From: Octopus vulgaris | Lineage: Eukaryota | Length of the DNA stretch: 64,000 nucleotides | Reading direction: 5' to 3' | NCBI GenBank assembly: GCA_951406725.2 | Contig: OX597818.1 | Coordinates: forward strand, 51,522,001-51,586,000 | Part shown: positions 32,505 to 61,165 of the stretch, one piece after another | Numbering within the stretch: the first letter of the stretch is position 1 | Layout: each line of letters opens with the position of its first letter | Made by a program: the position numbers and the translations under genes | The notes under the pieces: model-generated | The model's input: only the letters and a program-made list of their open reading frames with translations | Told to the model about the DNA's origin: nothing | Databases searched by the model: none

Positions 32505-32552
32505 TACCCCTCCGCATACAAAGCATGTGCTCTACTATCTGAGCTAATACCT
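32505..32552 (-). pseudogene. tRNA-Ala fragment, heavily decayed
   Basis: cgcatacaaagcatgtgctctactatctgagctaatacc aligns to the tRNA-Ala 5' part; the adjacent spacer resembles 33079-33306. Confidence 0.6.
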
Positions 32553-33005: not shown

Positions 33006-33078
33006 TGGAGAACCCGGGGATTGATCCCAGTACCTCTAGCATGCAAAGCGAGCGCTCTACAAACTGAGCTAATTCACC
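33006..33078 (-). pseudogene. tRNA-Ala(TGC) probable pseudogene
   Basis: GGTGAATTAG start loses G3:U70; D-loop GG changed; mismatches in the anticodon and T stems. Confidence 0.8.
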
Positions 33079-51308: not shown

Positions 51309-52287
51309 TATAAAGGAGATGATAATGATGATGATGATAATTGAAATGTAAAAATACCTGGGAAATGTTGTTGACAACATTTCTAAAAAATAGCTCAACA
51401 ATTACTGCTTTGGCCAGGGTCAAAATACAGGTGTCTCTTGGCATGTTCAACAAACCGTGACACCTAAACCAATCACCAATCAACTTAAATAATTTGTTAC
51501 ATTCCGAGTTCAAATTCTGCCGAGGTCGACTTTGCCTTTCATCCTTTTGGGGTCGATTAAATAAGTACCAGTTACGCTCTGGGGTCGATATAATCGACTT
51601 AATCCGTTTGTCTCTCCTTGTTTGTCCTCTCTGTATAGCCCCTTGTGGGTAGTAAAGAAATAGGTATTTAGTCTCCCGTTACGTTCTGAGTTCAAATTCC
51701 ACCGAGGTCGACTTTACCTTTCATCCTTTTGGGGTCGATTAAATAAGTACCAGTTACGCTCTGGGGTCGATATAATCGACTTAATCCGTTTGTCTCTCCT
51801 TGTTTGTCCTCTCTCTGTATAGCCCCTTGTGGGTAGTAAAGAAATAGGTATTTAGTCTCCCGTTACGTTCTGAGTTCAAATTCCACCGAGGTCGACTTTA
51901 CCTTTCATCCTTTCGGGGTCGATAAATAAAGTACTAATTTCGCACTGTGGTCGATCTAATCGACTTACTCCGTTTGTCTGTCCTTGTTTGTCCCCTCTAT
52001 GTTTAGCCCCTGTGGGCAGTAAGGAGAAATATATTAATAATAATCCTTTTTACTATAGGCAAAAAGACCTAAAAGTTCTGGTAGACTAATCAATTATATT
52101 GACTCCAGTTAATAACTGGTACTTATTTTATTGACCCGAAAAGACTGATAGGCAAAGTCGACCTCGGCAACATGTCAACATAGAACGTAAAACCAGACAA
52201 AAACGCCACTAAACATTCTGTCCGGAACGGTAACGAGTCTGCAAGCTTAAAATTTATTACTATTATTAATACCCATAGTAAGAGAGT

Positions 52288-52360
52288 GGGGAATTAGCTC
52301 AGATGGTAGAGCGCTCGCTTAGCATGCGAGAGGTACCGGGATCGATGCCCGGATTCTCCA
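52288..52360 (+). tRNA. tRNA-Ala(AGC)
   Basis: Intact 73 nt, anticodon AGC, G3:U70. Confidence 0.95.
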
Positions 52361-53319
52361 ATAGCCGGTTGTTTAGGCTGAATCATTCTAATTTTTATTA
52401 CTTTTATACGTATTGTATTTGTGAGTGCACGCATGATATTCAGCGAGATATACGTTTGTATGTGTGACAGAACCAAGTCTATTCGTACATTAACCGGTGG
52501 CCACCACCATTGTTGAAATTTTGTCTCACTATTAACAATACCGAAAAAGGATCGAATGTATACGAAACAAGGACAGAAAAACGGACGACGCTACACGAAA
52601 AACAAAAAATAATACGAATATAAATAGAAAAAACAATAATAATAATAATAACAGGACAAAACGACAGGCGTCTTTCGACTTTAGACAGTTGAACTTAGCT
52701 GGCGTATTTGAAAAAATAATGCCTTATAAAGACGAAGAAAGCGGTGTTATCGTGGCACTGGTCAGAAGCGGAAAGGCTATAGCTAGCCAGCGGTCACGTG
52801 AGAAGAGAAGAGAGAGAGAGAAAAGGGGCAAAGGAATTAAAGAGAGGGAGAAGAGAGAGAAAAACAGGAACAAAGGTATTAAGGAGGGGGAGAAGAAAGA
52901 GAGCGTTCCAAGGATTGGCGGGACAAAAGAAAGACAGGGTCAGTGAAGTGCAAAGCAAGAAATGCACGCCAGCTAAGTTCAACTGTCTAAAGTCGAAAGA
53001 CGCCTGTCGTTTTGTCCTGTTATTATTATTATTATTATTGTTTTTTGTATTTATATTCGTATTATTTTTTGTTTTTTTTTGTATTTATATTCGTGTAGCG
53101 TCGTCCGTTTTTCTGTCCTTGTTTCGAATACATTCGATCCTTTTTCGGTATTGTTAATAGTAAAACAAAATTTCAACAATGGTGGTGGCCACGAATAGAC
53201 TTGGTTCTGTCACACATACAAACGTATATCTCGCTGAATAAGAACATGCGTGCACTCACAAATACAATACGTATAAAAGTAATAAAAATTGGAGTTGTTT
53301 AGCCTAAACAACCGGCTAT

Positions 53320-53392
53320 TGGAGAATCCGGGCATCGATCCCGGTACCTCTCGCATGCTAAGCGAGCGCTCTACCATCTGAGCTAATTCCCC
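53320..53392 (-). tRNA. tRNA-Ala(AGC)
   Basis: Intact; inverted copy of 52288-52360. Confidence 0.95.
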
Positions 53393-53456
53393 GCTCGTTT
53401 ACAATAGGCATTAATAATAGTAATAAACTTATATGTATAAACTTATATATGTATAG

Positions 53457-54833: not shown

Positions 54834-57400
54834 CGACAGGCTTCTTTCAGTTTCCGTCTACCAAATCCACTCACAAGGCATTGGTCGGCCCGGGGCTATA
54901 GCAGAAGACACTTGCCCAAGATGCCACGCAGTGGGATTGAACCCGGAACTATGTGGCTGGTTAGCAAGCTACTTACCACACAGCCACTCCTGCGCCTATG
55001 CTCCTGCGCCACTCCTGCGCCACTCCTGCGCCACTCCTGCGCAAAAGTACCAGGGTACTTTTGCTATAACGAAATCTATATATTATGTTACATTCAGTGT
55101 TTCTTCGACTTCGGTCGACTTTGCCTTTCACCCTTTCGGGGTCGATAAATTAAGTACCAGTTACGCACTGGGGTCGATATAATCGACTTAATCCGTTCGT
55201 CTGTCCTTGTTTGTCCCCTCTGTGTTTAGCCCCTGGTGGGTAGTAAAGAAATTGGTATTTCGTCTGCCGTTACGTTCTGAGTTCAAATTCCGCCGAGGTC
55301 GACTTTGCCTTTCATCCTTTCGGGGTCGATTAAATAAGTACCAGTTACGCACTGGGGTCGATATAATCGACTTAATCCGTTCGTCTGTCCTTGTTTGTCC
55401 CCTCTATGTTTAGCCCCTGGTGGGTAGTAAAGAAATTGGTATTTCGTCTGCCGTTACGTTCTGAGTTCAAATTCCGCCGAGGTCGACTTTGCCTTTCATC
55501 CTTTCGGGGTCGATTAAATAAGTACCAGTTACGCACTGGGGTTGATATGATCGACTTAATCCGTTTGTCTGTTCTTGTTTGTCCCCTCTGTGTTTAGCCC
55601 CTTGTGGGTAGTAAAGAAACAAGAAATAGTACCTCTAAGGGATCTTTGTGGTTTTCGTCACTCTCTTTACTCTCCCTTTTACTCTTTTACTTGTTTCAGT
55701 CATTTGACTTTGGCCATGCTGGAGCACCGCCTTTTTTTTTAGTCGAGCAAATCGACCCCAGGACTTAATCTTTGTAAGCCTAGTACTTATTCTATAGGTC
55801 ACTTTTGCCGAACCGCTAAGTTACGGGGATAAACACACCAGCATCGGTTGTCAACCGATGTTGGAGGACCAAACACAGACACACAAACATACACACACAT
55901 ATATATATATATACATATATACGACGGGCTTCTTTCAGTTTCCGTCTACCAAATCCACTCACAAGGCTTTGGTCGGCTCGAGGCTATAGTAGAACACACT
56001 TGCCCAAGGTGCCACGCAGTGGGACTGAACCCAGAACCATGGGGTTGTTAAGCAAGCTACTTACCATACAGCCACTCCTGCGCCTATGTTTACAATTTTA
56101 TTCCAATTTGATATATGAATTAAGTTTTGTATACTAATTACGAAAACGAAATTTATTTTTCCTATAGATCCATTATTAAGAGTTATTAGCCGTTAAAATT
56201 TGCAAAATTTGGGTATTTTAGCCAATCAGAAGCGAGTATTTTAGGAGTGGCTGTGTAGTAAGTAGCTTGCTTACCAACCACATGGTTCCGGGTTCATTCC
56301 TAATGCGTGGCAAGTGTCTTCTACTATAGCCTCGGGCAGACCAAAGCCTTGTGAGAGGATTTGGTAGACGGAAACTGAAAGAAGCCCGTCGTATATATGT
56401 ATATATATATGTATGTGTGTGTATATGTTTGTGTGTCTTTGTCCCCTCCCCCCATCGTTGCTTGACAACTGATGGTGGTGTGTTTACGTCCCCGTAACTT
56501 AGCGGTTCGGTAAAAGAGACCGATAGAATAAGTACAAGGCTTACAAAGACTAAGTACTGGGATCGATTTGCTCGACTAAACGCGGTGCCCCAGCATGGCC
56601 GCAGTCAAAGGACTGAAACAAGTAAAAGAGTATCACCGTGGCGGAAAGTTCTGTTTCCATATTAACCAAAGATGCTGCGCATGCGCGCAAGGAGAAGGAG
56701 CTGCAAGAAAGATAATCTTTATATAATGATATTCTTCTGTATTTCTCCGTCACAACATATAAATGAGAAAGGAAGGGATGATCGATGAATAAGGAAGGAA
56801 AGGACGATGGCAAACTGGTAGAGGGAGTATATGCGTGTCTATGTAAAGGGAGGTATGTGAATTTTTTGTGCGCGTGCGTGTGCGTGTGTGTGTGCAATGG
56901 AAGTGGGATGGTGAACATTCTACGCTGAAAAGAAAAATTAAACAAAATTTCAAGTCTGCGTTGGTGTATGTGTGCCTGCCATAAGGGAAGTAGCAAAGTA
57001 CTCATGATTTTTGCTTCGTTTTTTTTTTTTTGCATGGGCGCATGTAAGTATTTCATTTATATCTATACGTATTTTCTACTGAAGAGGAAAAAAATCTATT
57101 ATGAGATTAATTCCGAAATTGATTCAATATAGAAATAACGAACTTTTTAAAAAATTCTGTTGGCTAGCTTTCCTCGATTTCAGCACAACGTATTTTTGTA
57201 GTGGGTATATAATAATATGTGGAAATTGACGATTTAAAAGTCTGTTATCAGCATATTGGCATAGAAATAATTTTCCTTTGCCCTTGTTTATAAGTTGTCT
57301 ATAATTTTAACCTTTAAAGGTATTTTAATATGCTGCCACCTTTTTGATGAATTTTTTTTCTGTAAAAAAACTTCATCCTATATTAGTAGTAGTAGTAGTA

Positions 57401-59531: not shown

Positions 59532-59752
59532 ACTGTTAATTTTAGTTCAATCCTTTAACATTAAAGGAGTAATTTCATTTTCTTTCTAATTTCTCCGTAT
59601 ACACACATACACGCGTATTGCAACTGATCATCGTTGTCGAGTTTTTGTTTTTTCAGTATTGTTAATAGTGAAACAAAATTTCAACCTATGGTGGTGGCCA
59701 CCGTTTAATATACGAATAGACTTAGTTCTGTCACACATACATACATATATAT

Positions 59753-59982
59753 TTCTTTACTACCCACAAGGGGCTAAACACAGAGAGGACAAACAAGGAC
59801 AGACAAACGGATTAAGTCGATTACATCGACCCCAGTGCGTAACTGGTACTTAATTTATCGACCCCGAAAGGATGAAAGGCAAAATCGACCTCGGCGTAAT
59901 TTGAACTCAGAACGTAGCGGCAGACAAAATACCGCTAAGCATTTCGCCCAGCATGCTAACGTTTCTGCCAGCTCGCCGCCTT
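59753..59982 (-). mobile_element. SINE family B monomer directly downstream of tRNA-Glu
   Basis: Full head-to-tail copy on the minus strand. Confidence 0.9.
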
Positions 59983-59995
59983 GTAAAATATAACG

Positions 59996-60067
59996 TTCCC
60001 ATGCCGGGAATCGAACCCGGGCCGCCTGGGTGAAAGCCAGGAATCCTAACCACTAGACCACATGGGA
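59996..60067 (-). tRNA. tRNA-Glu(TTC)
   Basis: TCCCATGTGGTCTAGTGGTTAGGATTCCTGGCTTTCACCCAGGCGGCCCGGGTTCGATTCCCGGCATGGGAA; 72 nt, intact cloverleaf. Confidence 0.95.
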
Positions 60068-60176
60068 AGTCACAACATACATATATATCGCTGAATAAGC
60101 ACATACGTACACACAAACTAGTAATACATATAAAAGTAATAAAAAGAAGAGTGATTCAGCGTAAGCAACTAGCCAT

Positions 60177-60249
60177 TGGAGAATCCGGGCATCGATCCCG
60201 GTACCTCTCGCATGCTAAGCGAGCGCTCTACCATCTGAGCTAATTCCCC
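60177..60249 (-). tRNA. tRNA-Ala(AGC)
   Basis: Intact 73 nt. Confidence 0.95.
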
Positions 60250-61165
60250 ACTCTCTTGCTATATTCCTTAATAATAGTAATAACCTTTAAGCTTGCAGAC
60301 TTGTTACCGTCCCGGACAGATTGTTTAGTGGCATTCTTGTCTGGTTTTACGTTCTATGTTGATATGTCGCCGAGGTCGACTTCGCTTCTTAGTATTTTCG
60401 GGTGAATAAAATAAGTACCAGTTATTAACTGAGGTCGATGTAATCGCTTAGTCTACCGAAACTTTTAGGTCTTTTTGCCTATAGTAGAAAGGATTATTAT
60501 TAATATATATCTCCTTACTGCCCACAGGGGCTAAACATAGAGAGGACAAACAAGGACAGACAAAGGGAGTAAGTCGATTAGATCGACGCCAGGGCGAAAC
60601 TGATACTGTATTTATCGACCCCGAAAGGATGAAAGGCAAAGTCAACCTCGGCGGAATTTGAACTCAGAACCTAACGGCGGACGAAATACCCATTTCTTTA
60701 CTACCCATAAGGGTCTAAACACAGAGGGGACAAACAAGGACAGACAAACGGATTAAGTCGATTATATCGACCCCAGTGCGTAACTGGTACTTATTTAAAC
60801 GACCCCAAAAGGATGAAAGGCAAAGTCGACCTCGGCGGAATTTGAACTCAAAACGTAACGGCAGACGAAATACGGCTACGCATTCCGTCCTGCGTGCTAA
60901 CGTTTCTGCCAGCTCACCGCCTTTATAAAATAAGTACCAGTTATTAACTGGGGTCGATGTAATCGCTTAGTCTACCAGAACTTTCAGGTCTTTTTGGCTA
61001 TAGTAGAAAGGATTATTATTATTATTAATAGTAATAATGGGTGAATTTCTTTTATCTTTTTTTTTTCTACTTGATTTTATCATTGAACTGCGGCCAAGCT
61101 GGGGCACCGCGTTAAAGCATTTGCTCGAACAAATCGCTCCCAGGTCATATTTTAAAATCTGAAAC

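What the first reader, a model, noticed from the sequence alone, without database searches (positions are those of the whole stretch)
59739..60088. Intact tRNA-Glu gene apparently delivered by a SINE (tRNA plus SINE inside one TSD pair)
Seen: on the minus strand the order is a 7-nt leader, an intact tRNA-Glu(TTC), a ~14-nt spacer containing only T4, and a complete SINE B. The unit is bracketed by a 14-bp direct repeat acatacatatatat (59739-59752 and 60075-60088). The flanks are paralogous to 53155-53320 and, inverted, to 52360-52540, where the site is empty and carries a single acaaacgtatatct. Inference: a Pol III transcript read through a weak terminator into the SINE and was retrotransposed whole. 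That would be 5' transduction creating a new tRNA gene, or the birth of a dimeric SINE. It would explain the lone Glu gene in an Ala block.
Basis: partly seen in the sequence, partly recalled or inferred. Interest (0 to 1): 0.85.

Follow-up and report, generated by a model that had tools for sequence, protein, structure and literature searches.

The report
Precursor tRNA fused to SINE retrocopy
An intact glutamate-tRNA sequence, still carrying a precursor-type tail and stop signal, sits joined to a short mobile repeat inside one insertion that is missing from duplicated copies of the site; it was likely made when the copying enzyme jumped from the repeat's RNA onto an unfinished tRNA, a rare form of a known process that could give rise to new tRNA genes.

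Summary
A 322-nt unit (tRNA-Glu-TTC, 7-nt trailer, T4, 4 nt, complete 228-nt SINE) plus one extra copy of a 14-nt target is absent from two paralogous segments. No TSD surrounds the SINE alone, so tRNA and SINE most likely arrived in one retrotransposition event (about 0.9). The SINE has 5 private changes in 228 nt while the host duplication is about 10% diverged: an insertion, not a deletion elsewhere. The tRNA lacks CCA and ends in a native-type trailer and T4, so the template was a precursor. The '7-nt leader' may be target-derived. Source locus, siblings, polymorphism and expression are untested (no genome held, no reads laid). A 5S rRNA-T6-SINE junction in the same window may be a second case. 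Verdict: new variant of known chimeric retrocopies; moderate interest.

The parts
60075..60088 (-). 5' copy of the target-site duplication (14 nt)
   Evidence: single copy at the empty paralogous sites
60068..60074 (-). 7 nt between TSD and tRNA: pre-tRNA leader, or target-derived (longer TSD with a 3-nt loss plus one base); unresolved
   Evidence: 6 of 7 nt match the target 3 nt beyond the 3' TSD, chance about 0.014
59996..60067 (-). intact tRNA-Glu(TTC) sequence, no encoded CCA
   Evidence: (66.5 bits)
59985..59995 (-). 7-nt 3' trailer and T4 run, Pol III terminator-like
   Evidence: first T>=4 run lies 6-12 nt after the gene in 10 of the 16 other tRNA genes of the window
59981..59984 (-). 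4-nt junction; at least the last A is the SINE's usual first base, the rest SINE 5' extras or untemplated
   Evidence: solo TSD-bounded copies carry 1, 4 and 8 extra nt ending in A
59753..59980 (-). complete SINE B copy, 228 nt, 5 private substitutions (one in the B-box-like motif, two create T4 runs)
59739..59752 (-). 3' copy of the TSD; first 3 nt double as the end of the SINE tail
53135..53400 (+). paralogous segment with the empty site
52280..52560 (-). inverted paralogous segment with the empty site; homology to the focal region extends to 51664 (89.4% over 805 nt)
60177..60249 (-). resident tRNA-Ala(AGC) gene about 100 nt upstream of the insertion, same strand
18968..19416 (-). possible second case: 5S rRNA copy, short trailer, T6, directly followed by the head of the other SINE family (SINE A, from 19297); no TSD found

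Best explanation
The 322-nt unit is a single insertion holding an intact precursor-type tRNA-Glu joined at its T4 run to a complete SINE, and it is likely a chimeric retrocopy made when a LINE reverse transcriptase copied the SINE RNA to its 5' end and then likely switched onto (or met, already ligated) the UUUU end of a nuclear pre-tRNA-Glu. Steps: (shown) insert absent at paralogous sites, one TSD round both parts, none round the SINE alone, same orientation, no CCA, trailer plus T4; (inferred) target-primed reverse transcription began on the SINE tail with 3 nt of match to the target, copied the whole SINE with its few 5' extra bases, continued on the 3' U-run of a pre-tRNA that still had its trailer, and was closed at or a few nt before the tRNA's mature 5' end; (inferred) because the trailer and T4 came along, the copy has internal promoter and terminator and could be transcribed as a tRNA gene; (untested) whether it is.
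For: One 336-column gap against both paralogs. TSD 14 nt flush with both ends of the whole unit; best match round the SINE alone is 6 nt, 40 nt from the tail. SINE 5 private changes of 228, 8 of 228 against the window majority, against about 10% for the host duplication. Trailer geometry as in native genes: first T>=4 run 6-12 nt after the gene in 10 of 16, exactly T4 in 8 of 16 (counted by eye). The donor sequence stops at that first T4: 7 of those 8 native genes have a longer back-up T run within 70 nt, the insert has none. The 4 nt between T4 and SINE head fall in the range of extras on solo copies (1, 4, 8 nt, all ending in A; 3 of 6 other insertions examined had a clear TSD). Published chimeras of U-ended Pol III RNAs have this form: full-length U6 ending in 5-7 T joined in sense, 6-19 bp TSD (PMC6789731); a U6atac/Alu chimera with a 14-nt TSD, and pre-tRNA retropseudogenes are cited as known (PMC4476161). 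A 5S-T6-SINE A junction in the same window has the same geometry with a stronger terminator.
Against: A T>=4 run within 5 nt of the head also precedes 2 of the 9 other SINE B heads, so a source SINE inserted just behind a tRNA terminator is not improbable, and back-up T runs behind native T4 suggest that T4 leaks. Small-RNA/SINE template-switch chimeras are described as very rare in human, and switching as nearly restricted to U6 and U6atac. Human tRNA/L1 chimeras are mostly antisense tRNA halves (PMC13174262), unlike this one. The 5S case has no TSD and its SINE lacks about 85 nt of 3' end, so it may be two events. The source tRNA-Glu gene is not in the window and could not be examined. The LINE partner was not identified.
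Confidence: 0.55

Rival explanations
1. Read-through / 5' transduction: a SINE B copy sits directly behind the T4 of a tRNA-Glu gene elsewhere; Pol III reads through T4, and the unprocessed tRNA-SINE RNA is retrotransposed whole by its SINE tail.
For: Explains one TSD, same orientation, full-length SINE and native trailer without any switch. T4 is often backed by longer T runs in native genes, 7 of 8, as expected of a leaky signal. T-rich sequence precedes 2 of 9 other SINE B heads. A tRNA promoter would be a strong driver (general knowledge).
Against: Needs the source SINE to have landed within 0-3 nt of the first terminator; no source-TSD remnant or spacer is visible. No sibling in the window. 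The RNA must escape RNase Z cleavage (general knowledge). If any of the two T4-creating SINE changes predate the insertion, more read-through is needed. It would not readily explain the 5S-T6 junction, if that is a like event.
Confidence: 0.33
2. Two successive insertions at one point: a pre-tRNA retrocopy (or the SINE) came first and made the TSD, and the other part inserted later at its edge without a recognisable TSD.
For: 3 of 6 other SINE B insertions examined show no convincing TSD; PMC4476161 reads one U6atac-Alu junction without TSD as two events.
Against: The TSD is flush with both ends of the whole unit, its first 3 nt match the SINE tail, nothing is lost from either part and orientation agrees; needs a second hit at one exact base.
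Confidence: 0.07
3. The unit is older than the duplication and was deleted between the repeats in the other lineage, or came by DNA-level copying (gene conversion) from another locus; the repeat is local TA/CA slippage.
For: The 14-mer is low-complexity, 13 occurrences in the window; the two empty sites are one lineage.
Against: SINE divergence (2.2% private) is well below the divergence of the duplication (about 10%); the two TSD copies are identical to each other and both differ from the empty sites at the same 3 positions; ends coincide with RNA ends.
Confidence: 0.05

Closest known systems
U6/L1 and U6atac/Alu chimeric retropseudogenes (PMC4476161, passages and section 6 whole; PMC6789731, passages)
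   Same: Full-length Pol III RNA ending in its T run, joined in sense to the 5' side of a retroelement, one TSD round both.
   Different: The 5' partner is a pre-tRNA with trailer, the 3' partner a complete tRNA-type SINE of an invertebrate, not a 5'-truncated L1; no poly(A) tail; RtcB ligation needs a 2',3'-cyclic phosphate and a 5'-OH, which a pre-tRNA end and an intact SINE start are not expected to have (inference), so switching fits better than ligation.
tRNA/LINE-1 chimeric insertions in human, n = 21 (PMC13174262, passages)
   Same: tRNA and retroelement inserted together, 9-19 bp TSD.
   Different: Those are mostly tRNA halves in antisense (twin priming); this is a whole tRNA in sense with trailer and terminator.
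Pre-tRNA and 'tailless' tRNA retropseudogenes (Schmitz 2004, seen only as cited in PMC4476161)
   Same: Precursor tRNA used as template by LINE machinery.
   Different: Here the 3' end is supplied by a SINE and the terminator is kept.
Complex (dimeric) SINEs with a tRNA-derived left monomer, e.g. Twin of Culex, B1-dID (SINEBase PMC3531059, passages and reference titles)
   Same: tRNA-type module followed by a second SINE; proposed to arise from such fusions.
   Different: One copy known, left module is an undegenerate tRNA with its terminator; not a family.
Octopus tRNA-derived SINEs OK/OR1/OR2 (Ohshima and Okada 1994, seen only as citation)
   Same: Recalled resemblance of SINE A and SINE B and of the repeat landscape to octopus genomes; O. 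vulgaris is 11.6% SINE (PMC13282606).

Membership tests
Chimeric retrocopy (small Pol III RNA + retroelement, U6/L1 type) | one TSD flanking both parts, empty site with one copy | tested here: met
Chimeric retrocopy (small Pol III RNA + retroelement, U6/L1 type) | both parts in the same orientation, small RNA 5', retroelement 3' | tested here: met
Chimeric retrocopy (small Pol III RNA + retroelement, U6/L1 type) | small RNA full-length and ending in its T run at the junction | tested here: met
   4 nt follow T4, within the range of SINE 5' extras
Chimeric retrocopy (small Pol III RNA + retroelement, U6/L1 type) | the two parts are not neighbours at any source locus (joined at RNA or cDNA level) | not tested
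   no genome held, no reads laid; source gene not in window
5' transduction / read-through retrocopy | source locus with the same tRNA-SINE adjacency and native upstream flank | not tested
   not in the window; genome not held
5' transduction / read-through retrocopy | 5' end at a transcription start upstream of the mature tRNA | tested here: inconclusive
   7 nt present, but 6 match the target sequence
Dimeric (complex) SINE family, SINEBase definition | at least 100 interspersed copies per genome | tested here: inconclusive
   1 copy in 64 kb; genome-wide number unknown; definition from PMC3531059
Dimeric (complex) SINE family, SINEBase definition | transcribable as one Pol III unit (no internal terminator) | tested here: not met
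   T4 after the tRNA and two more T4 runs in the SINE half
Functional tRNA gene | intact cloverleaf, anticodon, internal promoter boxes | tested here: met
Functional tRNA gene | downstream terminator | tested here: met
   T4 at +7, like native genes; no long back-up run
Functional tRNA gene | purifying selection | tested here: inconclusive
   1.3-1.6 changes expected if neutral, chance of none 0.21-0.27; no source gene to compare
Functional tRNA gene | Pol III occupancy, locus-specific pre-tRNA | not testable with these tools
   needs ChIP or pre-tRNA reads
Processed (mature) tRNA retropseudogene | encoded CCA, no trailer | tested here: not met
   the three bases after the discriminator are not CCA; trailer present
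Octopus OK/OR1/OR2 SINEs | sequence identity to the published consensus | not tested
   consensus not available in the papers read; resemblance recalled only

The most novel reading that the evidence does not exclude
In this lineage the SINE-mobilising reverse transcriptase routinely jumps onto U-ended nascent Pol III transcripts (pre-tRNA, pre-5S), so very abundant SINEs act as couriers that plant complete, terminator-equipped, working tRNA genes in new clusters: a retroposition route to tRNA gene birth, with the 5S-T6-SINE A junction in the same 64 kb as a second footprint.
Probability: 0.15. Interest if true: 0.72.

Novelty: new variant of a known kind. Interest (0 to 1): 0.42.

Why it matters
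tRNA retrocopies are usually dead ends (mature, CCA-bearing or truncated, no terminator). A precursor copy that brings trailer and terminator can in principle work at once, so this structure shows a way in which tRNA genes could move between clusters by retroposition, and a snapshot of the fusion step proposed for the origin of complex SINEs. The paralogous empty site makes the event unusually clean. As a single old insertion with unresolved mechanism it is a good example rather than a discovery; a genome-wide count would decide whether it is more.

Tried and rejected
No whole genome is held and no reads were laid, so source locus, siblings and presence/absence stay open. Run search: 14 of 24 listed rows hold 0.49-0.78 of 51 sampled words, under 7 coded organism labels; about half of the words can come from the SINE and tRNA alone, so unlaid shares say nothing on presence of the insert; the 0.08-0.10 shares in unrelated RNA samples are no evidence. 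Metagenome scan with a SINE-head motif: 27 loci, 0 of 27 extend beyond 21 nt and all are 54-76% GC: chance matches. Organism check through a LINE RT fragment: 3844 hits, best named ones 39-44% identical, organism not identified. Rfam at E<=0.5: among the 150 of 184 rows shown no further small-RNA fragment at a SINE head; the rest are sub-threshold microsatellite matches. Selection test on the tRNA: no power. SINE B preference for tRNA genes: 6 of 11 loci within 500 nt, 4.5 expected, P = 0.26, rejected; a point within about 100 nt of a tRNA gene has chance 5-9%. TSD for the 5S-SINE A unit: none above 7 nt. SINE fold: z = -0.72, uninformative. First SINE alignment mixed tail pieces into the head columns; its percentages were discarded and redone. 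Slippage, twin priming (same orientation) and mature-tRNA retrocopy (no CCA) rejected. Literature: searches gave 0 papers; others gave nothing relevant by listing; 10, 17, 32, 52 led to the papers cited; none of the ten showed a whole pre-tRNA-SINE chimera, but the library lacks most subscription papers (two look-ups failed) and no supplements were read (Table S3 of PMC13174262 could hold a full-length sense case). Earlier scan notes: nothing for this genome or this SINE.

Full report
1. Observation. On the minus strand the sequence reads: 14-nt repeat (60075-60088), 7 nt, tRNA-Glu(TTC) (59996-60067), 7-nt trailer, T4, 4 nt, SINE B (59753-59980), 14-nt repeat (59739-59752). ARAGORN finds 17 tRNA genes in the window, 11 Ala, 5 Gln and this one Glu; Rfam scores it 66.5 bits over the whole model and all stems pair. 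The SINE matches five other near full-length copies in the window at 91-95%. Two paralogous segments, 53135-53400 and 52280-52560 inverted, lack exactly 336 columns and have one copy of the target, 11 of 14 identical. The 14-mer alone would be weak: it occurs 13 times in the window, and 523 of 63,600 positions have a 14-nt match at spacing 336, nearly all in simple-repeat arrays. The empty sites make it a TSD. They are, however, two arms of one inverted duplication (flanks 3-7% apart), so one lineage.

2. Direction and age. The focal segment and the 52-kb segment are 89.4% identical over 805 nt; flanks next to the insert differ by 6-7% (left) and 24-25% (right), while the tRNA-Ala genes in them differ at 0 of 73. 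The SINE in the insert has 5 private substitutions in 228 nt (3 at CpG) and 8 differences from the majority of the 18 other units. Both TSD copies are identical and share 3 differences from the empty sites. The insert is therefore younger than the duplication: an insertion, not a loss elsewhere (inference).

3. One event. The TSD is flush with both ends of the whole unit; round the SINE alone the best match is 6 nt, 40 nt from the tail. The SINE tail of other copies ends three bases beyond the point where the alignment stops, and those three bases are the first three of the 3' TSD: priming with a short match, usual for target-primed reverse transcription (general knowledge). I put a single event at about 0.9.

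4. The template was a precursor. There is no CCA. The first T>=4 run comes 7 nt after the gene; in the 16 other tRNA genes it comes at 6-12 nt in 10 and is exactly T4 in 8; 7 of these 8 have a longer T run later within 70 nt (counted by eye). The insert copies the donor only as far as the first T4. Either it is a true leader with microhomology, or the TSD was about 23 nt with a 3-nt loss and the tRNA starts one base from its RNase P end, i.e. a 5'-processed, trailer-bearing intermediate. I rate these about even.

5. How the two RNAs were joined. Of six other SINE B insertions examined, three have a clear TSD (18, 15, 9 nt) and carry 1, 4 and 8 extra bases ending in A before the head. The 4 nt between T4 and the head of the focal copy are of this kind, so terminator and SINE start may abut with no genomic spacer. 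That is the anatomy of chimeras of U-ended Pol III RNAs: full-length U6 ending in 5-7 T, sense, 6-19 bp TSD (PMC6789731, passages); a U6atac/Alu with a 14-nt TSD (PMC4476161, section 6), whose authors name the terminal U run as a feature favouring switching and cite human pre-tRNA retropseudogenes. Against: they call RNA/Alu chimeras very rare; 2 of the 9 other SINE B heads also have a T>=4 run within 5 nt upstream, so a source SINE right behind a terminator is not far-fetched; and back-up runs suggest T4 leaks. My odds: switch or RNA joining 0.55, read-through 0.33, two events 0.07, DNA-level 0.05. The test is the source gene, which is not in the window; no genome is held and no reads were laid.

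6. A possible second case. A 5S rRNA copy at 19321-19416 (68.3 bits, model 14-109) is followed by a short trailer, T6 and directly the head of the other SINE family; 1 of 6 SINE A heads has such a T run. T6 would be hard to read through, which would favour switching, but this SINE lacks about 85 nt of its 3' end, the 5S start runs into a microsatellite and no TSD above 7 nt was found. It is a lead, not evidence of weight.

7. Function. Internal promoter and T4 are present and the copy lies about 100 nt behind a tRNA-Ala gene, so transcription is plausible (about 0.4, inference). Intactness does not show selection: 1.3-1.6 changes are expected under neutrality, chance of none 0.21-0.27. As founder of a dimeric SINE it is poor: one copy in the window, a change in the SINE's B-box-like motif and two new T4 runs at SINE positions 55 and 97. 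SINE B shows no clear preference for tRNA genes (P = 0.26).

8. Comparison. It works like U6/L1 and U6atac/Alu chimeric retrocopies and meets three of four defining features; the fourth (no adjacency at a source) is untested. Human tRNA/L1 chimeras (n = 21) are mostly antisense halves (PMC13174262, passages). Template switching is the standard proposal for module exchange in mollusc SINEs (PMC4758252, passages) and dimeric SINEs are a recognised class (PMC3531059, passages). PMC4824008, PMC13282606 and PMC11260458 were seen as passages; Buzdin 2003, Schmitz 2004, Feschotte 2001 and Ohshima and Okada 1994 only as citations. Ten searches showed no report of a whole pre-tRNA fused to a SINE, within a library that lacks most subscription journals; no supplements were read. 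That the host is an octopus, and any family name for the SINEs, is recall; one search did not identify the organism.

9. Verdict. Real feature, correctly described, one retrotransposition event from a precursor tRNA and a SINE. Mechanism more likely a reverse-transcriptase switch at the terminator than read-through, but open. New variant of a known kind; interest 0.42, rising to about 0.7 if a genome-wide count shows that this is a regular route to working tRNA genes.

Noticed in passing
window 18968-19416 (-): Degenerate 5S rRNA copy with trailer and T6 abutting the head of a SINE A copy that lacks its last ~85 nt; same geometry as the tRNA-Glu unit, no TSD found.
   Followed up: partly
window 2329-2735, 4571-4981, 26331-26860, 51498-52025, 55113-55618, 60512-60921: SINE B often forms head-to-tail dimers and trimers in which later units restart at position 48 of the element; at least two such arrays lie inside one TSD (9 and 15 nt), so tandem forms may be retrotransposed as units or expand in place.
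   Followed up: partly
window 52280-53400: Inverted duplication carrying two tRNA-Ala(AGC) genes on either side of a ~590-nt element with long terminal inverted repeats (about 52550-53140).
   Followed up: no
window 52288, 53320, 59459, 60177: tRNA-Ala(AGC) copies are identical (0 of 73 differences among the three aligned) while their flanks differ by 3-25%: purifying selection or conversion. Three have their first T>=4 run only 31 nt downstream and 51158 has none within 70 nt.
   Followed up: partly
window 26162-26232 (-), 32505-32551 (-), 33006-33078 (-): Decayed tRNA-Ala copies inside the cluster: gene birth and death.
   Followed up: no
window 21224-22462 (+): Open reading frame with the C-terminal part of a LINE reverse transcriptase (relatives carry PF00078, 39-69% identity); not shown to be the partner of either SINE.
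   Followed up: partly
window 54998-55050 (-): SINE A copy preceded by short tandem repeats of its own first ~11 nt.
   Followed up: no
window 8300-11900: About 3.5 kb array of a 4-nt repeat, unusually long.
   Followed up: no
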